Positions 502-61,664 of a stretch of 64,000 nt of DNA are shown piece after piece. Within the stretch, counting starts at the first letter, position 1, and every line of letters starts with the position of its first letter. Made by a program: the position numbers and the translations under genes. Location: positions 10,494 through 74,493 of the forward strand of contig URWN01000004.1 in assembly GCA_900551615.1 (NCBI GenBank). The letters are read 5' to 3'. The notes beneath the pieces are model-generated. The model saw nothing but the letters and a program-made list of their open reading frames with translations. It was not told the origin of the DNA and made no database searches. The DNA comes from an uncultured Clostridium sp. (GTDB taxonomy: Bacteria; Bacillota; Clostridia; TANB77; CAG-508).

Positions 502-3500
502 TTACTCACTTATCCCATCAAAAATTTTCTTAATCTCATCATTATAATAAATAGCTCCGCAAGGTCTAATATCTTCACCAATTTTAACTTGAACATTCAT
601 ATTATTCTTATCTCCTGAAAAGTATTTAATGGCACATCTTAATTTTTCTTTTTGTTCTTCTGTAAAATCAGTAATATCAAAAGTTACAACCTTCGGCTTT
701 TCTTCGCCTAAGTCTTTAATTTCATTTGCTATTATAGTTGGTTCTTGTTCCTCTCTAATGCTTAAGCGTCCATCAACTACTACAATGTTTTCTTCTACCA
801 AACTTCTTCCCGCTCCTATAACTGCATTTTCAAATGCAATTATTTCAACAGTTCCATATAAATCTTCTATTGTAATAAATGCCATTATTTTATTATTTTT
901 TGTGTATTTCTTTTTTATCGATGTTATAATTCCCGCAAATTTCACTTTCTGTCCATCTACAAATTTAGGTTTAGTATTTTTTATTTGTGCATTTGACATT
1001 TCTATACTGCCTTCTGCATTATTTTCAGTATTATTTGCTAAATTTTGTTCACTTATTTGTATCAAATCTATACTGCTAATATTTGTTGAATGCATAATTT
1101 GCTCTCTTAATTTTTCAAGTGGATGTCCTGAAATATAAATTCCAAGCATTTCTTTTTCCATTGAAAATAACTCTTTTTCTGGCAATTCTGGATGTTCTTC
1201 AAATTGATATTTTTGTTTTTCCATTTCTTCTTTTTCTTGTTCTGTTCCTATATCAAACATTGATACTTGTCCATTAAATCCTTTTTTCTTTCCACTTTGA
1301 ATTGTGTCCATTATTGTTTCAAATGATGCTAATAGTGTTGCTCTTGTTTGTTCAAATTCGTCAAATACTCCTGCTTTTATTAGACTTTCTACACATTTTT
1401 TGTTTACTTGTGTTTCTGCTATTCTTTCACAAAAATCTGTAAAGCTTTTGTATTCTCCATTTTCTTTTCTTTCTGCTACTATGTTTTCTACTGGTACTGT
1501 TCCTACATTTTTTATTGCTCCAAGTCCAAAACGAATTTTGCCAACCGCTTCTGATTTATTAACCTCTACTGTGAATTTTTCAAAGCTTTTGTTTATGTCT
1601 GGCTTTAGTATTTGGATTCCAAGTCTTTTACACTCATCAATATATTGAGGTGCTTTGTCCAAATTTCCTAAATAACTATTTAAAGTTGCTGCCATAAATT
1701 CTGCTGGATAATATGCTTTTAAATATGCTGTTCTGTATGATACAACTGCATAACATGCTGCATGTGATTTGTTAAATGCATATTTTGCGAACTCTGCCAT
1801 TTCGTCAAATATTTTATTTGCAGAAACTTCGTCTATTCCATTTCTTACACATCCTGGTACAACTACGTTTCCATCTTCGTCAACTTGACCATGTATAAAT
1901 ACTTCTCTTTCTTTTGCCATTACATCAAGTTTTTTCTTACCCATTGCTCTACGTACCAAGTCAGCTCTTCCTAGTGAGTATCCTGCTAAATCTCTAACTA
2001 TTTGCATAACTTGCTCTTGGTAAACCATACATCCATATGTTACATTTAATATTGGTTCAAGACTTGGATGTGTATATTCATTGTGTCCTGGATTTTGTTT
2101 TCCTCTGATGTATCTTGGTATTTGATCCATAGGCCCTGGTCTATATAAAGAAACTCCTGCTATCAAATCTTCCAAACAGTCTGGTTTTAGTTCTTTCATA
2201 AAGTTTGTCATGCCTTGTGATTCAAATTGGAATATTCCTGATGTGTTTCCTTCTTGCCATAATTTATATACTTTTGGATCTGACATATCATGGTCAAATT
2301 CCACATCTATTCCATGATTTTCTTTTACCATATCTATTGTGTTTTGGATTACTGTTAAGTTTCGTAATCCTAAAAAGTCCATTTTTAAAAGTCCTAATTC
2401 TTCAAGTGTTGTCATTATGTATTGGGTGTTTATTTGGCCATCTCTTACATAAAGTGGTACATATGTATCTACTGGGTCTTTTGTTATAACAACTCCACAT
2501 GCGTGTGTTGATGCCTGTCTTGGCATTCCTTCTAGCCCCATTGCTATGTCCAATATTTTCTTTGTTTGTTCGTCTGTTTCATATCTGTCTCTTAATTCTT
2601 TATTTTGTTCTAATGCTTTTTTTATTGTTATATGAATTTCATTTGGTATCATTTTAGCTAAAGTGTCTGCTTCTGAATATGGATAGTCTAAAACTCTTGC
2701 TACATCTCTTATTACCATTTTGGCTGCCATTGTTCCAAATGTTATTATTTGTGATACGTGGTCATGTCCGTATTTTCTTGCGACATAGTCTATAACCTCT
2801 TGTCTTCTTTCATCTGAAAAGTCAACATCAAAATCGGGCATACTTATTCTTTCTGGATTCAAGAATCTTTCAAATAGCAATCCATATTTTATTGGGTCAA
2901 TATCTGTTATTTCAATTGCATATGCCAAAATAGAACCTGCACCAGAACCTCTTCCTGGGCCTACTGGTATTCCATTTGTTTTTGCATAGTGTATAAAGTC
3001 CCATACTATTAGGTAATAATCAACATATCCCATTTTTTTGATTATTCCTAATTCATATTCTGCTCTTTTTTGTATTTCTTCTGATAGATTTTTTCCGTAT
3101 CTTTTTTCTAGTCCTTTGTCACATAATTCTTTTAAAAAGTCATAATGTGTTGGATATTCTGGTGGTACATCATAATTTGGCAATATTGTGTGTCCAAATT
3201 CAAATTCTACATTACATTCTTCTGCAATTTTTACTGTGTTTTCAATTGCATCTGGAAATGCTTTGAAATATTCTGACATCTCTTCTGGTGATTTTACATA
3301 TAACTCATCTGTGTCAAATTTCATTCTGTCTTCATCACTCATTCTTTTTCCAGTTTGAATACATAACAATACTTCGTGGTTATATGCATCTTCTCTTTTT
3401 AAATAATGTGCATCGTTTGTTGCAACTAGTGGAATATCAAGTTTTCTTGCTAATTGAACCAACTTTTGATTTGCTAAAACTTGTTCTCTTATTCCATTGT

Positions 3501-4026
3501 TTTGAATTTCTATGTAATAATCATCTCCAAAAACTTTTTTATGCCATAAAGCAATTTCTTCTGCTTTTTCATTTTGTCCACTTAATAAAGCTTGGTTTAC
3601 CTCTCCTGCTAGACATGCACTCAAACATATTAAACCTTCATGATATTGCTCTAATATTTCTCTGTCTATACGTGGCTTATAATAATATCCATCTACAAAG
3701 CTTAAAGATACCAATTTACTTAAGTTTTTGTATCCTTCATTATTTTTGGCAAGTAAAATCAAGTGATAGTAATGGTTGTCTATTCCAGGCTCTTTTTGCA
3801 ATCTTGAACGTGGTGCAACATATACCTCACATCCTATTATTGGCTTTACACCTTCTTTTTTACATGCTTTATAAAAATCAATAGCTCCAAACATTACTCC
3901 ATGGTCTGTTATCGCTATTGAATCCATTCCTAATTCTTTTGCTCTTACTGGCAAATCTTTTATTCTGTTTGCTCCGTCTAATAGACTGAATTCACTATGT
4001 ATATGTAAGTGTACAAATTTTGACAT
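502..4026 (-). CDS. dnaE: DNA polymerase III alpha subunit (DnaE type)
   Basis: 1174 aa. N-terminal PHP domain HLHIHSEFSLLDGA, pol III alpha core and C-terminal OB region. RBS GGAGAGAAAT lies upstream of the ATG. Confidence 0.95.
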   Translation of the reverse strand: MSKFVHLHIHSEFSLLDGANRIKDLPVRAKELGMDSIAITDHGVMFGAIDFYKACKKEGVKPIIGCEVYVAPRSRLQKEPGIDNHYYHLILLAKNNEGYKNLSKLVSLSFVDGYYYKPRIDREILEQYHEGLICLSACLAGEVNQALLSGQNEKAEEIALWHKKVFGDDYYIEIQNNGIREQVLANQKLVQLARKLDIPLVATNDAHYLKREDAYNHEVLLCIQTGKRMSDEDRMKFDTDELYVKSPEEMSEYFKAFPDAIENTVKIAEECNVEFEFGHTILPNYDVPPEYPTHYDFLKELCDKGLEKRYGKNLSEEIQKRAEYELGIIKKMGYVDYYLIVWDFIHYAKTNGIPVGPGRGSGAGSILAYAIEITDIDPIKYGLLFERFLNPERISMPDFDVDFSDERRQEVIDYVARKYGHDHVSQIITFGTMAAKMVIRDVARVLDYPYSEADTLAKMIPNEIHITIKKALEQNKELRDRYETDEQTKKILDIAMGLEGMPRQASTHACGVVITKDPVDTYVPLYVRDGQINTQYIMTTLEELGLLKMDFLGLRNLTVIQNTIDMVKENHGIDVEFDHDMSDPKVYKLWQEGNTSGIFQFESQGMTNFMKELKPDCLEDLIAGVSLYRPGPMDQIPRYIRGKQNPGHNEYTHPSLEPILNVTYGCMVYQEQVMQIVRDLAGYSLGRADLVRRAMGKKKLDVMAKEREVFIHGQVDEDGNVVVPGCVRNGIDEVSANKIFDEMAEFAKYAFNKSHAACYAVVSYRTAYLKAYYPAEFMAATLNSYLGNLDKAPQYIDECKRLGIQILKPDINKSFEKFTVEVNKSEAVGKIRFGLGAIKNVGTVPVENIVAERKENGEYKSFTDFCERIAETQVNKKCVESLIKAGVFDEFEQTRATLLASFETIMDTIQSGKKKGFNGQVSMFDIGTEQEKEEMEKQKYQFEEHPELPEKELFSMEKEMLGIYISGHPLEKLREQIMHSTNISSIDLIQISEQNLANNTENNAEGSIEMSNAQIKNTKPKFVDGQKVKFAGIITSIKKKYTKNNKIMAFITIEDLYGTVEIIAFENAVIGAGRSLVEENIVVVDGRLSIREEQEPTIIANEIKDLGEEKPKVVTFDITDFTEEQKEKLRCAIKYFSGDKNNMNVQVKIGEDIRPCGAIYYNDEIKKIFDGISE

Positions 4027-4047
4027 TTTTATTTATTTCTCTCCTTT

Positions 4048-4086
4048 TGTCCAAAAGTGTCCAAAAGGGACGGTTCTTTTTGGACA
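4048..4086. repeat. Palindromic intergenic element: half copy plus a full 29-nt unit, GGGACGG core
   Basis: tgtccaaaag + tgtccaaaagggacggttctttttggaca. The 29-mer differs at one position from the copy at 54222-54250. It sits directly upstream of the dnaE RBS. Confidence 0.85.
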
Positions 4087-4129
4087 TTCTTTTTTGTATT
4101 ATATTATCATTTTATATTAAAGTCAATAG

Positions 4130-4170
4130 AGCAAAAAAAGAAAACTAGTGCCGTACAAAACGGCACTAGT
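4130..4170 (-). terminator. Rho-independent terminator of the 208-aa orphan ORF
   Basis: Perfect 11-bp stem actagtgccgt/acggcactagt (4144-4154 and 4160-4170) with a 5-nt loop. On the minus strand it is followed by TTTTCTTTTTTT. Confidence 0.75.
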
Positions 4171-4177
4171 TCCCTTT

Positions 4178-4804
4178 TTACTTACACATACTTTTTAATG
4201 TCTTCCAAATATTATTTAATTTGGATATATGCAACCATGCCATATCTTCTTCCAAAAGACTTACATAATAAATTCCAACCTCCTCTGATTTATCATCCCA
4301 GTCAATATAAATCTCTTGAATGTATGGAGTTAAGCTTAGAAGTTTCTTCTCTATATCATTATTCAATGGATCATATCGGGCTAGTTGCTCAAAAGTTGTT
4401 TTTACATCTTTCCTTTCCAAATATTTGCCTTCGTCTTTCTGGTTTTTCCATGATAATCTCATTTGACTTGGAATTTTACTTTCTTTTTCCTTTGCCTTTT
4501 GGATTACTGTGCTTAGCATGTTACAGATTTCCGGTCCATACTGGTCTGCAGCCTGTTCTTTCACATCTCCGCCTTCTAGAGTATATTGTAGCATATACGG
4601 CTTATTCTCTATTAGCGGTAGAAAATTAATTACTTTTGCCTCACTTATTATTAAGTTTAAGTCAATTTCCTCCTGTTTCAGTTTTTCCATTGCTCCAGCT
4701 GGCAATTTTTTTGAAAGTTCATTCATAGCATTTTTTGCTTTCCGCCTATCCAGCATATAGCAAATAGCCATTTCCTCTTCAAAAATAACTAGTTTGTTGT
4801 CCAT
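4178..4804 (-). CDS. Hypothetical protein (208 aa), GC-richer orphan
   Basis: ATG preceded by AAAGGAGGAAT, with its own terminator. Composition is visibly GC-richer than the flanks and an in-frame CGG is used. No motif recognised. Confidence 0.7.
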   Translation of the reverse strand: MDNKLVIFEEEMAICYMLDRRKAKNAMNELSKKLPAGAMEKLKQEEIDLNLIISEAKVINFLPLIENKPYMLQYTLEGGDVKEQAADQYGPEICNMLSTVIQKAKEKESKIPSQMRLSWKNQKDEGKYLERKDVKTTFEQLARYDPLNNDIEKKLLSLTPYIQEIYIDWDDKSEEVGIYYVSLLEEDMAWLHISKLNNIWKTLKSMCK

Positions 4805-4946
4805 GTGTGTAATTCCTCCTTTTAATAATTTATTTCGGAGGTTATTAAAAATTACCCTCCGAAATTGTTTCGAAAGGCACTTTTACCTTTAACATTAGAA
4901 TTATATCATATCTAAACCAATTTTTCAAATTTTATTTACAGGTTTT

Positions 4947-5153
4947 CTATAACTTTAACAACAAAATTATCTTTTCCCTTAGCTCTAATTTATTTAGAGC
5001 TATTGTAAGTGCGTCAAATAATATTTCCAACATTTCTTGTTCGTTAGTATCGTCTGCATTTACTCTCTTATCAGCTAAGATATCTTCTATTTTTAACTCC
5101 TTTCCGTTTTGATCTATTGAAATAACTTCTGATAGATATTGGTCTTTACTGCT
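4947..5153 (-). pseudogene. Sigma-70-family sigma factor fragment (region 3 to start of region 4), no start codon and no region 4.2 HTH
   Basis: The open frame after the sleB stop reads SSKDQYLSEVISIDQNGKELKIEDILADKRVNADDTNEQEMLEILFDALTIALNKLELREKIILLLKL*. It is collinear with the S.D...G.E....D.L........L..L..REK.I..LRFGL part of sporulation-type sigma factors. It stops where LRFG and the HTH should follow. Confidence 0.4.
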
Positions 5154-5198
5154 TTTATTAATCCTATGGTACCTTATTTTATAATATATAAATATTTT

Positions 5199-5906
5199 TT
5201 ATTTACAAAATCTATGTTTTCCAATTGTTACAGTCATAGGTCTTGACCAAATCCATTTATTAGTTGCAGTTGATGGGTTAAAATAATAAATTGCTCCATA
5301 ACTTGGATCCCAGCCATTCATTGCATCTTGTGCTGCTTTTCTTGCTGTTGAATCTGGTGTTAAATTAACTTGTCCATCTTTTACTGCATCAAAAGCTCCT
5401 GATTGATATACTACTCCTGATAGAGTATTTGGAAATGAACTACTTTTTATTCTATTCATTACTACAGCGCCTACTGCTACTTGTCCTGTATATGGCTCTC
5501 CTCTTGATTCACCATAAATTACTCTTGATAATAAATTTAAATTACTATTATAACTAGATGATGAACTGCTTGAACTTGAAGATGTCATTATTCCCATTGC
5601 TTTTAATGTTGCTGGTCCTGCAATTCCATCTGCTGTTAGCCCATTTTTTCTTTGAAAGTATTTGACAGCATTTACTGTTTGCGTTCCGTAAATTCCGTCT
5701 ATATTACCTGAATAATATCCCCATCTTTTTAATTTTGTCTGTATCTGAGTTACTTCGCTTCCTCTTGATCCATATTTTGATAACGTTTCTACGGTTGCAT
5801 TTTGTTGTTTATTTTTATAGATTATTATCCCTGTTGTTATTAATGATATTACAAGTAGTATACTTGCTATTATAGCTATAACTATATGTTTTTTATTTTT
5901 TAACAT
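5199..5906 (-). CDS. sleB: Spore cortex-lytic enzyme SleB family (PG-binding domain plus Hydrolase_2 domain)
   Basis: PG_binding_1 motif GSRGSEVTQIQTKLKRWGYYSGNIDGIYGTQT, a poly-Ser linker, then SRVIYGESRGEPYTGQVAVGAVVMNRI. Start moved to the ATG at 5906, which has RBS AGGTGG. The ORF-track start at 5942 has none. Confidence 0.85.
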   Translation of the reverse strand: MLKNKKHIVIAIIASILLVISLITTGIIIYKNKQQNATVETLSKYGSRGSEVTQIQTKLKRWGYYSGNIDGIYGTQTVNAVKYFQRKNGLTADGIAGPATLKAMGIMTSSSSSSSSSSYNSNLNLLSRVIYGESRGEPYTGQVAVGAVVMNRIKSSSFPNTLSGVVYQSGAFDAVKDGQVNLTPDSTARKAAQDAMNGWDPSYGAIYYFNPSTATNKWIWSRPMTVTIGKHRFCK

Positions 5907-6066
5907 AAAAAAACCACCTATCAATAAAAATATTTTTCTCAATTGTCAAATTTTCTTTAATGTTAGTATTATTTTTATCAATATTTGGTTTTATTATACA
6001 TTTTACTTATATTTTTTGTATCTATAAAATCTGATGCTGTCTGCATAAAATTTTGTTTTCACAAAA

Positions 6067-7089
6067 TTATGAGCAATATCTACATAATGTTGTTTCTATT
6101 CCTACTTGTAAGTCAATTTTCCCATTTTTAAAATTGTAGTCTAAATCGCATAAATCTTGTAATATATTTCTTAAGTCTTTTTCATTAAAATATTTTGATT
6201 GTACTTTATACTTTGTTGTTAAAAACATTTGATTTTGCTTTAAATTCAAACTAATAGCTAAATCTTTGTTAGTATTTATTGCCATTTTTGTTATATATAA
6301 TTTTTTGAAATGATTATATAATGTAACTAAAATTTTTGCTAAAGGTTCTTTTGCATATATTAAATTTTGTAAAACTTGTAATGCTCCTGTTATGTCTTTT
6401 TTTCCTAAATCATCTGTTAAATCAAATATTACACTTTCTAATTTTTTTATAGATAACTTGTCTATATCTTCTTTTTTTATTGTTCCATTTTCTCCTGCAT
6501 ATTCAATTAGTTTTCTAATTTCATTTATTAAATCTTGCATATTTGTCCCACAACATTCAATAAAATATCTTATTGTTTGAGAATCTATATTTACTTTATA
6601 AGCATTGCAAATCGCCTTTATTCTTTGTTCTATTTGATTTGGTTTTTGAAAATCAAATTTACATACAATTCCATTTTTTTCTATAGCTGTATATAAAGTT
6701 GATTTGCTATCTGCTTCATCTTCAACAAATACTAATACTACGGATTCATTTATTATTTTTATATTTTCTTCTATGTATTTTGCTAATTTTTCTTTTAGTT
6801 TAGCAGTGTCCCCAGATTTCTTTTTTCCTTCTTTTTTGAATAATCCTGTGTTTCTTGCAATTATTAATTTTTTTTCATATCCAAAACTTGGTGTTTCTAT
6901 GTCTGAAATTATTTCTGGCACATTTTGTTCATCTATCATTATAAAGTTTATGCCTTTAACGCATTCACCAAATAGTGTTTTTATCTTTTTTAGGTTGGTT
7001 TCTAGTAAATATAACTCTTCACCATATAAAAGATATAGTGATTGGAGTTGACCTGATTTTAGTTCTTTTTCTAAATTTTCTATTGTCAT
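6067..7089 (-). CDS. holA: DNA polymerase III delta subunit
   Basis: Length and pattern (LYLLYGEE.YL; C-terminal helical domain) fit HolA. Start set to the ATG at 7089 (MTIENLEK) with RBS GAGAGGAGAAAAGC. The 44-aa upstream extension in the ORF track is a translation of the repeat element. Confidence 0.8.
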   Translation of the reverse strand: MTIENLEKELKSGQLQSLYLLYGEELYLLETNLKKIKTLFGECVKGINFIMIDEQNVPEIISDIETPSFGYEKKLIIARNTGLFKKEGKKKSGDTAKLKEKLAKYIEENIKIINESVVLVFVEDEADSKSTLYTAIEKNGIVCKFDFQKPNQIEQRIKAICNAYKVNIDSQTIRYFIECCGTNMQDLINEIRKLIEYAGENGTIKKEDIDKLSIKKLESVIFDLTDDLGKKDITGALQVLQNLIYAKEPLAKILVTLYNHFKKLYITKMAINTNKDLAISLNLKQNQMFLTTKYKVQSKYFNEKDLRNILQDLCDLDYNFKNGKIDLQVGIETTLCRYCS

Positions 7090-56363: not shown

Positions 56364-56720
56364 CTATGCTTCTACTTTTTCTTCAGCTTTTGCTGCTGTT
56401 TTTCTTGCTGTTGATTTGATTGCTGTTATTTCAACTTTTGTGTATGGTTGTCTATGTCCTTGTTTTCTTCTGTAGTTCTTTTTAGCTTTCATTTTGAAAA
56501 CAATGATTTTTTTACCTTTTCCATGTGAAACAACTTTTCCTTCAACTTTCATACTTTTTACATAAGGATTTCCTACTTCTACTTTTCCTTCGTCTGATAC
56601 TAGGATTACTTTGTCAAAAGTAACTTTTTTTCCTTCTTCAGCGTCTAATTTTTCGAAGAATACTACATCTCCTTCTGCTACTTTGTATTGTTTTCCACAA
56701 CTTTCAATTACTGCGTACAT
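56364..56720 (-). CDS. rplU: 50S ribosomal protein L21
   Basis: [25 protein letters not shown] is canonical for L21. RBS GGGAGGTG. Confidence 0.95.
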
Positions 56721-56853
56721 TTAAAATGCACCTCCCTTATTTGTATACTCGCTAATCCTTTTGCTAAAGGTAACTAAATTTGATTAGTTTTTATGTACCT
56801 TGACTAAGCGGATTACAGTTATTTATTTTAACATTATTTTCCTTGCTTGTCAA
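56721..56853 (-). promoter_or_regulatory. rplU promoter (TTGACA-17-TAAAAT) plus a structured ~100-nt leader (candidate L21 leader)
   Basis: -35 at 56848-56853 and -10 at 56825-56830 on the minus strand. The leader can pair TAATCC-GCT..AAGGTA with TACCTT.AGC..GGATTA around an inner AACTAA/TTAGTT stem. Confidence 0.5.
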
Positions 56854-56946
56854 CTGGTTTTGATAATTTTCAGAAAAAAAGAGTAAATTCCGGAAATTTC
56901 ATTTGAAATTATAAAAATAATGATTCTTTAAACTTTCAAAATAGAA

Positions 56947-56976
56947 ATATGAAGAAGATATAAATCTTCTTCATAT
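56947..56976 (-). terminator. Terminator of the phosphatase-methyltransferase-oxidoreductase operon
   Basis: Perfect 13-bp stem atatgaagaagat/atcttcttcatat with a 4-nt loop, followed by TTCTATTTT on the minus strand. Confidence 0.7.
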
Positions 56977-56978
56977 CT

Positions 56979-57545
56979 CTATCTTTCAAAATCTTCTTCA
57001 ATTGCTTTATCTTTTTTTCTTGTATTATTATCATATTCAAGTACTTCACAATTTTTTAATTTATAATTATTGTAATTTCCATCTTTAGGTTCACCTTCAA
57101 AATAACATCTTACATATATGCTTACTCCAGCATGAGTTACAACCAATACATTTTTCCCTGCATACTTTTTTTCTAATTCATCAAAAAAATCTGTTATTCT
57201 ACCTCTAAAATCAGGTAATGATTCTATTCCTAATTTTTGTTCATTCTCATCTGTAAAATCAACCATATTTTCACATTCCGTTTTTAATTTGCCCTCTAAT
57301 TGGCCATTACATCTTTCGATTATTCTATTATCTATTTCAATTGGTTCATTTGTAATGATTTGTGCTGTTTCAAGAGCTCTTTTTAATGGGCTTGAAAACA
57401 CTTTATCAAATTCAATTCCTTCTAATTTTTCTTTTGTCTTTTTTGCTTGATTTTTTCCTTTCTCATTTAAAGGAATGTCGATCCTGCCTTGAAACCTTCC
57501 CTCTAAATTCCAATCTGTTTGTCCATGTCTTACAACATAAATCAT
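56979..57545 (-). CDS. Histidine phosphatase family protein (phosphoglycerate-mutase-like)
   Basis: IYVVRHGQTDWN (RHG motif) and a distal VVTHAG motif. Confidence 0.85.
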   Translation of the reverse strand: MIYVVRHGQTDWNLEGRFQGRIDIPLNEKGKNQAKKTKEKLEGIEFDKVFSSPLKRALETAQIITNEPIEIDNRIIERCNGQLEGKLKTECENMVDFTDENEQKLGIESLPDFRGRITDFFDELEKKYAGKNVLVVTHAGVSIYVRCYFEGEPKDGNYNNYKLKNCEVLEYDNNTRKKDKAIEEDFER

Positions 57546-57546
57546 T

Positions 57547-58221
57547 TTATTTTTCCTCCTTTTCTTTTAATACAAACACATATAATGCTATTGGTTTAAA
57601 TATTCTTTTTGGTTTCTTGCATATATCAATAAATCTTTTAAAAAATGTTTTATAATGATAGCCTGTTTCTTTAATAATTTCAGCATTGCTTTTATTAATT
57701 ATTTTTCTCCATTTGTTTCTTTTCATGAATCTTTCATTACCTAACATTTTCTTTTCAAAGTAAGGTGTTGGAACACTAAAAACACAAACATCTGATACTC
57801 TCAATTGTTCATTTATAATTGAAATAATCTCATCATCACTATAATGTTCCATAACCCCACTACTATGTGTTACTGAAAAAAATTTATTTTCAAATGGTAT
57901 ATTCCTAATATCACCTTGAAAAATATTTACTTCATTTTCAGGACTAACGTGTTTAGATAATTCTTTTGCCTGTTCAACCATTGCTTGTTCTAAGTCCATT
58001 GCATATGCTTTTACTCCTTTTGAAGCAAGATATGCAGAAAATTTGCCTGTTCCAGCACCACATTCCAAAACTGGCTTTTTTCCATCGTAATATTTTAATA
58101 CCTGATTTAAAAATTTCTTTTTTAATTTCATTTTAGTTTTAAAATATTCATCCCAATTTTTAAATTCTTTATTTATATAATTCTCATATAATTTATTCCA
58201 TTGATTATCTTTATTTTCCAT
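57547..58221 (-). CDS. Class I SAM-dependent methyltransferase
   Basis: Motif I VLECGAGTGKFS with the post-I acidic residue (YAMDLE). Confidence 0.8.
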   Translation of the reverse strand: MENKDNQWNKLYENYINKEFKNWDEYFKTKMKLKKKFLNQVLKYYDGKKPVLECGAGTGKFSAYLASKGVKAYAMDLEQAMVEQAKELSKHVSPENEVNIFQGDIRNIPFENKFFSVTHSSGVMEHYSDDEIISIINEQLRVSDVCVFSVPTPYFEKKMLGNERFMKRNKWRKIINKSNAEIIKETGYHYKTFFKRFIDICKKPKRIFKPIALYVFVLKEKEEK

Positions 58222-58233
58222 ACATATACCTCA

Positions 58234-59682
58234 TTAATCCTTATATTTTTCTTTTACTTCAATTTTACTTGTGCCTGATTTATAAATTAATGACATTATT
58301 TCTACAGACATTTTGTGATCTAAAATATTCGACTTTGTTTCCGTAGGCTTTCTCTTACCAATTACAACTTCTAAAAATTGTTTTAATGCTTCATGTCTCG
58401 CAAGTTCATTCATAACTTTTGTTTTATCTAAAGAATATCTTTCTGCTATATCTTTACCTTTTATAATTTGTAGTGTCTGACCTCTAACTATCTCACTATT
58501 TTTAAAAACATATATATCATAATGATTATTTCCACCTATTTCGAAATCACTTTCATTATTTATATCATGCTTATCTTTAGATTGATAAGAATGTATTTGA
58601 ATATTCTGTAAACAACCTTGCTCTATATTGTGATATTCATGTCTAACTCTGCCATTTCCTTTATAAAGGTCTTTCATATTAGAATTCAACCATGAACGAC
58701 GTGAAAAACCATTATGTATCAAATTTAATGTAATATTTGTAACTGGAATTCCATTATACGATAAAGAAATAATAGAATTAGCATCAACTTCTGCTTCATT
58801 TTTCTCCTTATATATTTTTAATAGTTCTTCATCTGTTCTGCAGTCAAGTTGTTTATATTCATACCCAAATATTTTTTCTAAATCTCTTTGATTTTGTTGT
58901 AATAGTACTCCTGATGGACGAATAAATTTTGAAAATACAGATATTTCATCAAAATTTTTATTAGCTTCTTTAAATGAATCTTTTACTATTTTTGATGCCA
59001 TATCTATAAAATGATATCCACTATGGGATACTTTTCCCCACCCTAGTAATGGATGATATTTGAATTTTAAAACTTCATCTGGCAATCTCCATTGTCCATC
59101 ACTATGTGTACTTTGCATTGAAGTGATTGGCATTCCGTACTTACTAGATATTTCATTTACCAAATCTTGAACAATTTGAAATTGTGGTAAAAATCTTCTT
59201 TGAGCATTTACTATAAAAGCTTTGTCTCCAGAATAGCTTTCTACTAACAATTCATAATCTTTTTTTAATTGTTCAGCTTGTTCAACATTATTAGAAATAT
59301 TATCATAAGTTGATATAGGTTTATCCATCAAAATATGCAAATTATGTTTTAATGCCCATAATGCATATTGCATATGGTTAAGTGGATCTGTTGCAATTAT
59401 AACAGAGTTAATATTTTCTTTAGCTATAATACTATTAAGTCTATTTTCCACTTTTTCTGGCAAACTTTGTTTAAAATTTTTTTCAAATTTGTCAACAAAA
59501 AAATAATTAATATTTTCAAAATATTTTGAAGCAAATGTTAAAATATCCTCTTGTTTTTCTTTTAATTCTACTATTGCTTTAAGTTTTATTCCAAATTCGC
59601 TTTCAATCTCTTTTAATTTCGGAACATACACTCTTTTTGCATGAGGTCCACACCCAATTAACATGATATTTGGTGTTTCCAT
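58234..59682 (-). CDS. Gfo/Idh/MocA-like NAD(P)-binding oxidoreductase, unusually long (482 aa)
   Basis: N-terminal IMLIGCGPHAKRVYVPKL Rossmann-type start, then ATDPLNH..YALWALKHNLHILMDKP, typical of the family. The C-terminal half is unrecognised. RBS GGAGGAG. Confidence 0.6.
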   Translation of the reverse strand: METPNIMLIGCGPHAKRVYVPKLKEIESEFGIKLKAIVELKEKQEDILTFASKYFENINYFFVDKFEKNFKQSLPEKVENRLNSIIAKENINSVIIATDPLNHMQYALWALKHNLHILMDKPISTYDNISNNVEQAEQLKKDYELLVESYSGDKAFIVNAQRRFLPQFQIVQDLVNEISSKYGMPITSMQSTHSDGQWRLPDEVLKFKYHPLLGWGKVSHSGYHFIDMASKIVKDSFKEANKNFDEISVFSKFIRPSGVLLQQNQRDLEKIFGYEYKQLDCRTDEELLKIYKEKNEAEVDANSIISLSYNGIPVTNITLNLIHNGFSRRSWLNSNMKDLYKGNGRVRHEYHNIEQGCLQNIQIHSYQSKDKHDINNESDFEIGGNNHYDIYVFKNSEIVRGQTLQIIKGKDIAERYSLDKTKVMNELARHEALKQFLEVVIGKRKPTETKSNILDHKMSVEIMSLIYKSGTSKIEVKEKYKD

Positions 59683-59769
59683 AAAACTCCTCCATTTTTT
59701 ACTAAAAATAACAATTCTATCTAATTATACTACTTATTTGCAAATTTTTCAACAGCTTTTGTTGTTTTG

Positions 59770-59798
59770 TTGACATAATTTTATTTTACTGATATAAT
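59770..59798 (+). promoter_or_regulatory. Consensus sigma-A promoter (TTGACA-17-TATAAT) of the radical SAM gene
   Basis: ttgaca taattttattttactga tataat, 63 nt upstream of the ATG. Confidence 0.6.
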
Positions 59799-59861
59799 AT
59801 ATACAATTCGGTAACAAATAATATTTTAAACCTGTCACTAAAATTTTATGGAGGTGCCATT

Positions 59862-60713
59862 ATGACTAGTAATGAAAAAAAGCATTATTCTATCGAAGAT
59901 CCAAATCATGTCGGAGAAGTGATTATATCTTGGATTATCACTCATTCTTGTCAAGAAAGATGTGGCTATTGTATTAGTCCTAAAAAGCGGAATGAAATAA
60001 CGACAAGAGAAGGCCATTTTATGGTACAAAATCAGTTAATCGAAACTGGTTTAACCAAGATGCGTTATATCGGTGGTGAACCCTTGTTAATTCCTCATCT
60101 TCCTGATCTGATTATTGATGCATACAATCGGGGACTTAATACAAGATTGAGTACAAATGGTATTCTTCTAACAGAAGAAATATTTGGAAAAATTAAAAAT
60201 CACTTAAACTCTATTGCATTTCCTTTCGAATCAGCTGAAGATGAATTAAACGAGAAGATTCGCTGTACCAAATGTCATCGTGATACTATCATTTCACGTA
60301 TCAAAATGGTTAAAAAAGCTGACGATATTGGTGTTCTCATAAACACTTGTGTTCATAAAGAGAACATTGATTATCTTGAAGACCTTGGTTCGCTTTTAAA
60401 TAACTTAGGAGTTGACCATTGGAAATTAAGACGTTTCAATTCAGCAAGCGGTAGAGGTGCTGTTCCTAACAAAAACCGATTTGATATCACAGACGAGGAA
60501 TTCTTCGCTAAAGTTGCTCAGTTACAAAAAATGTTTCCGAATCTTAAAATTGATGGAAGAATGCCTTCTAAATTAGCTACCCGTCTTATGGTTTCCCCTC
60601 AAGGAGATTTATATCGGATGATTGGTGCTGAAACAGAAGATGTTCACTATGGAAATATGTTGACTGACAATCTCAATATCAAAGAGATTTACGAAAAAGA
60701 TCACTGTAACTAA
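59862..60713 (+). CDS. Radical SAM enzyme, viperin-like architecture (candidate prokaryotic viperin)
   Basis: CX3CX2C (HSCQERCGYC). It is collinear with viperin blocks: IGGEPLL (SGGEPFL), LSTNGILL (IVSNGSLI), NSIAFPFESAEDE (LAISCDSFDEE), LINTCVHKEN (KINSVINRFN), HWKLRRF (RWKVFQ) and FDITDEEF (FVIGDEEF). 283 aa with no SPASM Cys cluster. RBS GGAGGTG. Confidence 0.6.
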   Translation: MTSNEKKHYSIEDPNHVGEVIISWIITHSCQERCGYCISPKKRNEITTREGHFMVQNQLIETGLTKMRYIGGEPLLIPHLPDLIIDAYNRGLNTRLSTNGILLTEEIFGKIKNHLNSIAFPFESAEDELNEKIRCTKCHRDTIISRIKMVKKADDIGVLINTCVHKENIDYLEDLGSLLNNLGVDHWKLRRFNSASGRGAVPNKNRFDITDEEFFAKVAQLQKMFPNLKIDGRMPSKLATRLMVSPQGDLYRMIGAETEDVHYGNMLTDNLNIKEIYEKDHCN

Positions 60714-60733
60714 TTTTAATCATTGCTACCGAA

Positions 60734-60774
60734 AAAGAAAGAATCACTGTATTGTGGTTCTTTCTTTATTTTTT
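60734..60774 (+). terminator. Terminator of the radical SAM gene
   Basis: aaagaaagaatcac tgtatt gtggttctttcttt gives 14 bp with one G-U pair, followed by ATTTTTT. Confidence 0.75.
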
Positions 60775-60917
60775 AAATAATATTCTAATATAAGTTCATC
60801 TCTTTTTATAACCATTCTTGAATTGTAAAGATTACTATATTTAGATGGAATTAATTTATCATAACATCAATTTTTTCAAAGAATGAAAAGTAGCAATGAA
60901 ATTTCATTTGTTTCATA

Positions 60918-61664
60918 CTATTTTTTTGCTCTTACAAATAAAAAATATGGTCTATCATATTGATTAATATATTTCGGAATAATTTTTATAGCTTTCTCAT
61001 CGGGTATTGGCTCTAAAATTTTATCAATTTTAAATCCTGAATTAACTAATCCATTTATTAAGCTGCTAAAATTTCTATGATATCTTTTTACCATGACACC
61101 GTTCCATTCTTTTTCTCTTATCCCTTCTCTATTATAGTCTGAGACAAGTAAAAACCACTTTCCGTTAATTTTTGTATAATTTTTTTTCATCCATGTTTCA
61201 AATTTACTTGCTATTCTTAATGGATGATCTATTGAAAAAATTAATATTCCATCATCATTTAGTAAATTATATATATCATTTATTAACTTTTCATAATCTT
61301 TAACATAATGAAATGCTAATGATGAAATAACAATATCAAATTTTTCTTCAATTTCATTAATATTTTCCATCGCCATTACTTTATATTTTATATTTTCATC
61401 ATTATTGTTTTCTTTTGCTATTTTTATCATATGTTTAGAAATATCAATTCCCAAAATTTCTTTTGCTCCTAGTCCTATGCAATACTTATCATTTTCTCCA
61501 TATCCACAACCCAAGTCAAGAATTCTTTTCCCTTTAACATCAGGTATTAGTTTTCTAAAATTAGGTATTTCAACTAAATCATTTGCATTCATTCCCTTGT
61601 TTTCATATCTCATTTTGTCATATGCATCTGAAAAACTTTTAATATCATATATATTTTGTTTCAT
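60918..61664 (-). CDS. Class I SAM-dependent methyltransferase (Methyltransf_11-like)
   Basis: Motif I ILDLGCGYGEN, GIDIS and DIVISSLAFHYV. Confidence 0.8.
   Translation of the reverse strand: MKQNIYDIKSFSDAYDKMRYENKGMNANDLVEIPNFRKLIPDVKGKRILDLGCGYGENDKYCIGLGAKEILGIDISKHMIKIAKENNNDENIKYKVMAMENINEIEEKFDIVISSLAFHYVKDYEKLINDIYNLLNDDGILIFSIDHPLRIASKFETWMKKNYTKINGKWFLLVSDYNREGIREKEWNGVMVKRYHRNFSSLINGLVNSGFKIDKILEPIPDEKAIKIIPKYINQYDRPYFLFVRAKK

What the first reader, a model, noticed from the sequence alone, without database searches (positions are those of the whole stretch)
59770..60774. Stand-alone viperin-like radical SAM cassette with consensus promoter, GC-richer than its surroundings
This is the only plus-strand gene in an otherwise minus-strand stretch. 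It has a perfect TTGACA-17-TATAAT promoter, a strong RBS and a 14-bp terminator. The protein (283 aa, CX3CX2C, no SPASM or auxiliary Cys cluster) is collinear with eukaryotic and prokaryotic viperins through the C-terminal nucleotide-binding half (LINTCVHKEN, HWKLRRF, FDITDEEF, LMVSPQGDLYRM). Composition and codon choice (CGG, TCG, CCC) differ visibly from the neighbours, which suggests horizontal acquisition. Prokaryotic viperins make chain-terminating ddh-nucleotides as an anti-phage defence. The gene is flanked by two SAM methyltransferases rather than typical defence neighbours.
Basis: partly seen in the sequence, partly recalled or inferred. Interest (0 to 1): 0.6.

Follow-up and report, generated by a model that had tools for sequence, protein, structure and literature searches.

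The report
Viperin-like enzyme in nucleoside-tailoring cassette
This gene encodes a radical SAM enzyme whose closest known relative is the antiviral enzyme viperin, but it fails the tests for a true viperin and is the conserved core of a mobile, undescribed multi-enzyme cassette in uncultured gut bacteria that probably makes a modified nucleoside or nucleotide.

Summary
There is a 283-aa radical SAM ORF (59862-60713, +) with a 12/12 promoter, a GGAGG RBS and a 14-bp terminator. It is the only plus-strand gene across about 27 kb. Its GC (98.5th percentile) and codon usage are clearly atypical for the genome.

Viperin is the nearest family by HMM, PDB sequence search and fold (TM 0.77-0.79). However, the protein scores 99.6 bits against a pVip cut-off of 180. 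It has S/I in place of the N-x-H residues and L/H in place of two phosphate-binding Lys/Arg. It also ends before the essential C-terminal RxxxY clamp.

It is not stand-alone. In 28 of 29 related loci it sits with a histidine phosphatase, a methyltransferase and a long Gfo/Idh/MocA-like sugar oxidoreductase. A NUDIX hydrolase is often present too, in some loci fused to the oxidoreductase, and one subclade has a thymidylate-kinase-like gene. In this window the oxidoreductase operon is transcribed divergently from a back-to-back promoter, and a NUDIX gene survives only as a 39-codon remnant.

The cassette was not found in 150 genomes of the same order, so it is an accessory island. The enzyme is under strong purifying selection (dN/dS 0.03-0.15). 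The product and biological role are unknown.

This scan reached the same reading earlier on other DNA (e1-1182257).

The parts
59770..59798 (+). sigma-70-type promoter of the rSAM gene (TTGACA-17-TATAAT, TG-extended -10)
   Evidence: 12/12 match, the best site in the region
59850..59854 (+). GGAGG ribosome-binding site, 7 nt before the ATG
   Evidence: read from the sequence
59862..60713 (+). viperin-like radical SAM enzyme, 283 aa (CX3CX2C at C30/C34/C37, GGE at 71-73, no SPASM domain, no C-terminal clamp)
   Evidence: purifying selection
60734..60777 (+). intrinsic terminator (14-bp stem, 6-nt loop, T-run)
60750..60866 (-). remnant (last 39 codons) of the cassette's NUDIX gene. About 1.17 kb, comprising the rest of NUDIX and a second His phosphatase, is deleted relative to L013/L001.
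59724..59752 (-). divergent promoter (TTGAAA-17-TATAAT, 11/12) of the partner operon, back to back with the rSAM promoter
58234..59682 (-). long Gfo/Idh/MocA-like NAD-dependent sugar oxidoreductase (482 aa), a cassette partner
57547..58221 (-). class I SAM methyltransferase MT1 (224 aa), a cassette partner
56979..57545 (-). histidine phosphatase (188 aa, CobC/alpha-ribazole-phosphatase-like), a cassette partner
60918..61664 (-). second SAM methyltransferase MT2 (248 aa), linked to the cassette only in the window's own clade

Best explanation
The gene encodes a functional radical SAM enzyme of a tight, undescribed family that branches in the sub-threshold 'viperin-like' cloud around the prokaryotic viperins. 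It is the radical-chemistry step of a mobile cassette of 4 to 7 genes: rSAM, histidine phosphatase, SAM methyltransferase and a long Gfo/Idh/MocA-like oxidoreductase, with or without NUDIX, a thymidylate-kinase-like kinase and a second methyltransferase. Inferred mechanism: the [4Fe-4S]/SAM site generates 5'-deoxyadenosyl radical. This abstracts a ribose hydrogen of a phosphorylated nucleoside and drives a viperin-type beta-elimination (dehydration). NUDIX and the His phosphatase then strip the phosphates. The Gfo-like enzyme carries out NAD-dependent redox on the altered sugar ring, and the methyltransferase caps it. The result would be a tailored nucleoside or nucleotide, plausibly an antimetabolite or chain terminator. 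Shown here: family placement, fold, loss of viperin's substrate residues, gene linkage and fusions, accessory distribution and purifying selection. Inferred: substrate, reaction, order of steps, product and biological role.
For: Viperin is the nearest family. NF038283 is the top NCBIfam hit and PADLOC pVip gives E = 2.6e-32. PDB profile hits 5vsl/6q2p reach E = 4.5e-15. The AF2 model (pLDDT 86) matches mouse viperin at TM 0.77-0.79 over about 278 columns. Linkage: the His phosphatase occurs in all 28 related loci other than the 1.8-kb contig L010, and MT1 in 27 of them. The Gfo-like gene is present wherever the contig reaches far enough. Gene order is shuffled between lineages. Fusions occur as Gfo+NUDIX (L009, L025) and Gfo+NUDIX+MT1 (L022). 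A thymidylate-kinase-like ORF sits directly after the rSAM in L020, L021 and L023, echoing viperin-CMPK2 and pVip-kinase pairs. The Gfo-like model (pLDDT 85) matches sugar 3-oxidoreductases and NAD-dependent glycosidases such as DgpA, glucuronide-3-dehydrogenase and the 8qc5 sulfoquinovosidase. The His phosphatase is closest to the alpha-ribazole-phosphate (a nucleotide) phosphatase CobC. Back-to-back promoters join the rSAM and the partner operon in this window. dN/dS is 0.03-0.15. The four gene trees are congruent, which points to co-inheritance. The cassette is accessory: 0 of 150 same-order genomes carry it, it is missing from the syntenic site in 3 same-genus genomes, and in L023 it lies next to tRNA genes and an integrase.
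Against: No biochemistry exists. The substrate pocket is rebuilt: only 1 of the 3 rigid phosphate ligands named for viperin is kept, and there is no RxxxY clamp, whose loss abolishes all ddhNTP synthesis in viperins (10.64898/2026.09.10.750538). The substrate may therefore not be an NTP at all. Foldseek E-values for SkfB, DesII, BlsE and MoaA lie close behind viperin. No transporter, regulator or riboswitch is conserved with the cassette, so the fate of any product is unknown. The kinase match is below Pfam's cut-off (22-25 bits against 27) and is limited to one subclade. In this window NUDIX and the second phosphatase are deleted, so the pathway here may be incomplete.
Confidence: 0.55

Rival explanations
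1. It is a genuine prokaryotic viperin: a single-enzyme anti-phage defence whose end product is a ddhNTP chain terminator. The neighbouring genes would be unrelated or merely auxiliary.
For: pVip is the best PADLOC hit at 110 bits. The fold is viperin-like. K120 and K247 equivalents are kept. Ile at the His78 position is compatible with ddhCTP synthesis in human viperin. Distribution is sporadic and accessory, as for defence genes. A TMPK-like kinase is present in one subclade.
Against: The score is 99.6 bits against the curated cut-off of 180. N77, H79, K220 and R245 are replaced and the RxxxY clamp is absent. The partner set is obligate and includes fusions. No defence genes were seen around it in any locus, and the partners have no specific PADLOC hit. 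It was not found in viral contigs. Mean column identity of 72% across classes is unusually conservative for a defence gene.
Confidence: 0.12
2. The enzyme acts on a non-nucleotide substrate, such as a sugar phosphate, an NDP-sugar as with DesII/BlsE, or a cofactor precursor. The cassette would then be a glycan, cofactor or catabolic pathway, and the viperin similarity would be only shared ancestry of the fold.
For: DesII, BlsE and MoaA are close structural neighbours. The Gfo-like partner resembles glycoside and C-glycoside 3-oxidoreductases of gut bacteria. Viperin's triphosphate ligands are mostly lost. A variant cassette replaces the rSAM with a Peptidase_U32-family protein.
Against: NUDIX (nucleoside-diphosphate-X hydrolase), a CobC-like nucleotide phosphatase and a TMPK-like kinase all point to a nucleotide-type substrate. 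No glycosyltransferase or transporter is conserved with the cassette.
Confidence: 0.25
3. The gene is a recently imported and poorly adapted or decaying passenger. The foreign codon usage and CGG codons that the host rarely reads would mean it has no function in this genome.
For: Codon usage falls at the 0.3rd percentile of the genome. There are 3 in-frame CGG codons. No tRNA-Arg(CCG) was found in the assembly. The adjacent NUDIX gene is deleted down to a remnant.
Against: The frame is intact with perfect expression signals. dN/dS is 0.03-0.15 against five relatives. The same high GC3 is kept in all members of the clade despite dS up to 1.0. The tRNA set recovered is incomplete, with no Ala, Asn or Ile, so the absence of tRNA-Arg(CCG) is not shown.
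Confidence: 0.05

Closest known systems
Viperin (RSAD2/SAND) and prokaryotic viperins (pVips; NCBIfam NF038283, PADLOC pVip)
   Same: It shares the partial TIM-barrel radical SAM fold of about 280 aa without a SPASM domain, plus CX3CX2C and GGE. It is collinear through beta6 (…NT.V…, .WK…, F.I(S/T).EEF). K120 and K247 equivalents are kept. A thymidylate-kinase-family gene is linked in one subclade. Distribution is accessory.
   Different: It is below the family cut-off (99.6 against 180 bits). N77->S23, H79->I25, K220->L159 and R245->H186. It has no C-terminal tail or RxxxY clamp. New invariant motifs appear: SGRGAVPNK, DGRxPSK, and RDxCN with an invariant C282 and C163. It is obligately linked to phosphatase, methyltransferase, Gfo-like and NUDIX genes rather than being a single-gene system.
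Cordycepin pathway of Cordyceps militaris (Cns1 oxidoreductase, Cns2 phosphohydrolase, Cns3 kinase); comparison from my own knowledge, not tested here
   Same: The logic of kinase plus phosphohydrolase plus oxidoreductase that edits the 3' position of a nucleotide's ribose to give a chain-terminating nucleoside.
   Different: There is no radical SAM step in cordycepin synthesis, the protein families are unrelated, and the host is fungal.
Radical SAM sugar-nucleotide enzymes DesII, BlsE and MoaA
   Same: Close structural neighbours. They carry out radical chemistry on a sugar carbon next to a leaving group in a nucleotide-linked substrate.
   Different: Scores are far below family cut-offs (MoaA 55 against 284 bits, BlsE 33 against 400). 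There is no auxiliary cluster and no C-terminal extension.

Membership tests
Prokaryotic viperin (pVip, NF038283 viperin_w_prok) | Score at or above the curated HMM cut-off (180 bits) | tested here: not met
   99.6 bits, with model positions 2-245 of 281 matched. TIGR04278 viperin gives 35.6 against 450.
Prokaryotic viperin (pVip) | Radical SAM core: CX3CX2C cluster motif and GGE SAM motif, about 250-400 aa, no SPASM domain | tested here: met
   C30/C34/C37 and G71-G72-E73; Pfam Radical_SAM only.
Prokaryotic viperin (pVip) | Viperin fold | tested here: met
   The AF2 model (pLDDT 86) matches 6q2q/5vsl/6q2p at TM 0.77-0.79. Other rSAM folds follow closely.
Prokaryotic viperin (pVip) | Substrate-pocket residues N77 and H79 (mouse numbering) before the cluster motif | tested here: not met
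   The profile alignment to 5vsl_A gives S23 and I25, nearly invariant and invariant in the family respectively.
Prokaryotic viperin (pVip) | Rigid phosphate ligands K120, K220, R245 (human K119/K219/R244; 10.64898/2026.09.10.750538) | tested here: not met
   K66 is kept, but L159 and H186 replace K220 and R245, and both are invariant in the family.
Prokaryotic viperin (pVip) | C-terminal tail with the RxxxY clamp on the gamma-phosphate | tested here: not met
   The protein ends ...IKEIYEKDHCN right after the last helix and has no RxxxY. Sub-threshold relatives of the other half of the tree do carry a basic/aromatic tail.
Prokaryotic viperin (pVip) | Makes ddhNTP and protects against phage | not testable with these tools
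   Needs anaerobic enzymology and phage challenge.
MoaA (GTP 3',8-cyclase) | HMM cut-off and a C-terminal auxiliary [4Fe-4S] cluster | tested here: not met
   TIGR02666 gives 55.3 against 284 bits. Only two further conserved Cys (C163, C282) are present.
SPASM/twitch peptide maturases (PqqE, SkfB, StsB) | C-terminal SPASM/twitch Cys-rich domain and family cut-off | tested here: not met
   Scores of 61-70 bits against cut-offs of 381-625, with matches restricted to the N-terminal core. No SPASM domain is found.

The most novel reading that the evidence does not exclude
The cassette is an extended 'viperin plus tailoring' pathway. A rebuilt viperin-type dehydratase and downstream NUDIX, phosphatase, sugar-oxidoreductase and methyltransferase steps would make a previously unknown sugar-modified nucleoside, for example a 3'-deoxy or didehydro, O-methylated chain terminator or antimetabolite. 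Uncultured gut Firmicutes would use it for antiviral defence or for interference competition. A sister version would swap the radical SAM step for a U32-family Fe-S enzyme.
Probability: 0.35. Interest if true: 0.8.

Novelty: new variant of a known kind. Interest (0 to 1): 0.62.

Why it matters
Viperin chemistry is the only known enzymatic route to natural chain-terminating ribonucleotides, and it is shared by human and bacterial immunity. A tightly conserved, horizontally mobile relative with a rebuilt substrate pocket, hard-wired to four or five tailoring enzymes, suggests that gut bacteria make a nucleoside analogue not yet described. Such a compound could be a new antiviral or antibiotic scaffold, and it would extend the reaction scope of the viperin fold. 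The case also shows that 'best hit pVip' annotations (PADLOC E = 1e-32) can mislabel a large sub-threshold cloud of viperin-like enzymes. All 20 sampled members of that cloud scored 89-166 bits, below the curated cut-off.

Tried and rejected
(1) Xenologous replacement of the rSAM gene alone. Trees of rSAM, Gfo-like, MT1 and the His phosphatase all give the same grouping: (W, L011, L012, L013, L001) joined with L005, and L014/L015 outside that group. The atypical GC3 therefore remains unexplained. It is confined to the window's clade (0.25-0.27), is intermediate in L014 (0.21), and is absent elsewhere.

(2) Fetching true pVips for a joint tree. A scan of 400 genomes of the phylum with NF038283 found none above the cut-off. 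All 20 representatives of the nearest 150 clusters were also below the cut-off. The family could therefore be placed only within the sub-threshold cloud.

(3) Context of the sister families. P0121-like and P0125-like genes are solo insertions among housekeeping genes, so they give no functional clue.

(4) A riboswitch or other RNA element as a ligand clue: none found in the window or in 9 loci.

(5) Phage origin: no relative was found in viral contigs.

(6) PADLOC on the partner genes gave only generic methyltransferase and NUDIX similarity.

(7) AckA and HelD are interleaved with the cassette in the Bacilli-type loci. They score as genuine acetate kinase and HelD, so I treat them as probable synteny and leave this unresolved.

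(8) Absence of tRNA-Arg(CCG) cannot be concluded, because the recovered tRNA set lacks Ala, Asn and Ile.

(9) The far boundary of the island could not be defined, because the contig ends 1.7 kb beyond the window and the region upstream of rplU differs in every relative examined.

(10) Literature searches found no description of this cassette.

Full report
OBSERVATION

The ORF is at 59862-60713 on the plus strand and encodes 283 aa with CQERCGYC.
- Upstream lies a 12/12 TTGACA-17-TATAAT promoter with a TG-extended -10 at 59770-59798. It is the best site in the 5.2 kb scanned.
- GGAGG sits 7 nt before the ATG.
- Downstream is a 14-bp hairpin plus T-run at 60734-60777. Its dG is -17.9 kcal/mol, z = -4.2, and none of 200 shuffles folds as well.
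- All other long ORFs between 36649 and 64000 are on the minus strand.

I laid the whole 1.6-Mb, 27%-GC genome in the Python box to test composition.
- The gene's GC is 0.346, the 98.5th percentile of 893 long ORFs.
- Its GC3 is 0.261 against a mean of 0.139, the 99.1th percentile.
- It holds 3 of the genome's 73 in-frame CGG codons.
- Its rare-codon fraction is 8.5% against a median of 1.4%.
- The flanking genes are ordinary.

WHAT THE PROTEIN IS

Pfam sees only Radical_SAM. The best NCBIfam model is NF038283 'viperin_w_prok', but at 99.6 bits against a curated cut-off of 180, and only model positions 2-245 of 281 are matched. Eukaryotic viperin TIGR04278 gives 35.6 against 450, and MoaA, PqqE and NirJ score lower. 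PADLOC's pVip models give 108-110 bits.

Against PDB sequences the best hits are viperins and viperin-like enzymes. The family profile hits mouse viperin 5vsl/6q2p at E = 4.5e-15. An AlphaFold model built on 20 family members (pLDDT 86) matches mouse viperin at TM 0.77-0.79 over about 278 columns. SkfB, SuiB, DesII, BlsE and MoaA follow closely. Viperin is therefore the nearest known family by three independent measures.

MEMBERSHIP TEST

The profile alignment to 5vsl_A aligns the chain's cluster cysteines (positions 40, 44 and 47) with the family's C30, C34 and C37. On an offset of 44 between chain index and residue number, these are mouse C84, C88 and C91 (offset and numbering from my own knowledge). 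It gives the following mapping:
- N77 -> S23
- H79 -> I25
- K120 -> K66 (kept)
- K220 -> L159
- R245 -> H186
- K247 -> K188 (kept)

The replacements are invariant or nearly invariant across the family.

A 2026 preprint (10.64898/2026.09.10.750538) names human K119, K219 and R244 as rigid phosphate ligands. It also shows that the C-terminal RxxxY clamp is essential for all ddhNTP synthesis from fungi to humans. In that work His78Ile leaves ddhCTP synthesis intact but abolishes activity on UTP, GTP and ATP.

The window's protein ends ...IKEIYEKDHCN directly after the last helix, with no tail and no RxxxY. Several defining features of viperins are therefore tested and not met, so I do not file it as a pVip.

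FAMILY STRUCTURE

An exhaustive profile search of 1.84 billion cluster representatives found a single 50%-identity cluster for the family (496 bits). There is then a gap to three sister sequences at 161-212 bits. Below that lies a continuum of about 260-290-aa radical SAM proteins at 95-150 bits.

I scanned 20 representatives of that continuum. All have NF038283 as their best or second-best hit, but at 89-166 bits, which is below the cut-off. In a tree the family plus its three sisters form a supported clade. That clade sits in the half of the cloud that lacks a C-terminal tail, while the other half has a basic/aromatic tail.

The family itself is very conservative. Mean column identity is 72% across hosts labelled Clostridia, Bacilli and Mollicutes.

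IT IS NOT STAND-ALONE

I looked up contigs for homologues at 59-91% identity and fetched 19 genome loci. I mapped the window's neighbours onto them.
- A His_Phos_1 phosphatase is in all 28 related loci other than L010, a 1.8-kb contig. The methyltransferase MT1 is in 27 of them.
- The 472-497-aa Gfo/Idh/MocA-like protein is present wherever the contig reaches far enough.
- NUDIX is common.
- Gene order and orientation differ between lineages. Three loci carry fusions: Gfo+NUDIX in L009 and L025, and Gfo+NUDIX+MT1 (876 aa) in L022.
- In L020, L021 and L023 a thymidylate-kinase-like ORF follows the rSAM directly. Pfam PF02223 gives 22-25 bits, just under the cut-off of 27, but the match covers the full length of the model.

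The sister families P0121 and P0125, by contrast, are solo genes among housekeeping genes.

In the window, the partner operon Gfo-MT1-phosphatase (59682-56979, minus strand) starts from an 11/12 promoter at 59752-59724. This is back to back with the rSAM promoter.

THE PARTNERS
- The phosphatase is closest to CobC, the alpha-ribazole-5'-phosphate phosphatase, at 114 bits, which is below the cut-off.
- The Gfo-like protein has no NCBIfam family. It keeps the Rossmann GxGxxxK, the DKP (EKP-type) motif and the G-x-H-x-x-D motif among 74 invariant columns.
- Its model (pLDDT 85) matches sugar 3-oxidoreductases and NAD-dependent glycosidases: DgpA, glucuronide-3-dehydrogenase, the 8qc5 sulfoquinovosidase, GFOR and KijD10.
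- AckA and HelD are interleaved with the cassette in the Bacilli-type loci. They score as ordinary acetate kinase and HelD, so I leave their membership open.
- A same-genus genome (G551) carries a variant with Gfo-like (54% identical to the Bacilli-type protein), a 700-aa Peptidase_U32-family protein, NUDIX and a TehB-like methyltransferase, and no rSAM.

EVOLUTION AND MOBILITY

The family profile found no match at E <= 1e-40 in 150 other genomes of the same order, 24 of them from the same genus. The Gfo-like protein was found in only 2 of 60 same-genus genomes, at 29-33% identity. In three same-genus genomes GT4-rpmA-rplU synteny is kept but the cassette is missing, and the DNA upstream of rplU differs in each. 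In L023 the cassette lies beside two tRNA genes and an integrase. It is therefore an accessory, mobile island.

Trees of rSAM, Gfo, MT1 and the phosphatase are congruent, so the rSAM was not imported separately. Its high GC3 is confined to the window's clade and remains unexplained.

Selection and recombination:
- dN/dS of the rSAM is 0.03-0.15.
- Against L011/L012, dS rises from 0.15 at the rSAM through 0.26 (Gfo) to 0.5-0.7 further out. This indicates a recent recombination tract centred on the rSAM.

The window also carries a scar. Positions 60750-60866 (minus strand) encode only the last 39 codons of the cassette's NUDIX gene. About 1.17 kb, comprising the rest of NUDIX and a second phosphatase, is deleted relative to L013 and L001. 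L011 and L012 have a different deletion. A 49%-identical NUDIX gene exists elsewhere in the genome.

MECHANISM

What is shown:
- an intact, strongly constrained radical SAM enzyme of viperin ancestry;
- its obligate partnership with phosphate-removing enzymes, a sugar-ring oxidoreductase and a methyltransferase, and sometimes a nucleotide kinase.

What is inferred: radical H-abstraction on the ribose of a phosphorylated nucleoside with beta-elimination, then dephosphorylation, sugar redox and methylation, giving a tailored nucleoside or nucleotide. The loss of most triphosphate ligands means the substrate may differ from an NTP.

Whether the product serves defence, competition or something else is open. 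No defence genes, transporters, regulators or riboswitches are linked, and no phage copy was found.

COMPARISON AND NOVELTY

The nearest known kind is viperin/pVip, and the cassette works plausibly 'like' an extended viperin pathway, but the membership tests fail. Five literature searches found no description of it.

Earlier notes of this scan, on other genomes, reached the same reading (e1-1182257, e1-1096111, e1-3207968). I re-derived it independently here and add the following:
- the accessory distribution;
- the NUDIX deletion scar;
- the recombination tract;
- the U32 variant;
- the integrase context;
- the CGG-codon anomaly.

I rate it a new variant of a known kind, with interest 0.62.

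Noticed in passing
window 60750-60866 (-): The last 39 codons of a NUDIX gene survive here, 85% identical to the intact gene in L001. About 1.17 kb (the rest of NUDIX and a second His phosphatase) is deleted relative to L013/L001. L011/L012 carry a different, larger deletion at the same place.
   Followed up: yes
window 59988-59990, 60129-60131, 60615-60617 (CGG codons 43, 90, 252 of the rSAM): There are three in-frame CGG codons at conserved Arg positions, and R252 is invariant in the family. The genome otherwise has only 70 more in-frame CGG codons in 893 long ORFs. No tRNA-Arg(CCG) was found, but the recovered tRNA set is incomplete.
   Followed up: partly
L041 (G551:C73) 2041-6893: A same-genus genome has a variant cassette with no radical SAM gene. 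It comprises a Gfo-like protein (54% identical to the Bacilli-type one), a 700-aa Peptidase_U32-family protein, NUDIX and a TehB-like methyltransferase.
   Followed up: partly
L020 10791-11438; L023 10376-11083; L021 ~3282-3887: A thymidylate-kinase-like P-loop ORF (215-235 aa; PF02223 at 22-25 bits, cut-off 27) follows the rSAM directly. In L023 its start abuts the rSAM stop codon. This mirrors the viperin-CMPK2 and pVip-kinase pairing.
   Followed up: partly
L023 3789-5537: Two tRNA genes and a phage-type integrase lie immediately beside the cassette, which is the typical layout of an integrative genomic island.
   Followed up: no
window 56720-56979 and relatives L050-L052: The DNA upstream of rplU differs in each of three same-genus genomes, while GT4-rpmA-rplU is conserved. 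This is a variable spot where the cassette sits in this genome.
   Followed up: partly
L006, L009, L016, L018, L019, L024, L028: An acetate kinase and a HelD-type RNA polymerase recycling helicase are interleaved between the rSAM and the Gfo-like gene, in several different orders, in the Bacilli-type cassettes. It is unclear whether this is synteny or true membership.
   Followed up: no
window 59862-60713 versus L011/L012: The dS gradient (rSAM 0.15, Gfo 0.26, MT1 and phosphatase 0.5-0.6, MT2 0.7) indicates a recent recombination tract centred on the rSAM gene. Against L013 and L001 the rSAM instead has the highest dS, about 1.0.
   Followed up: partly
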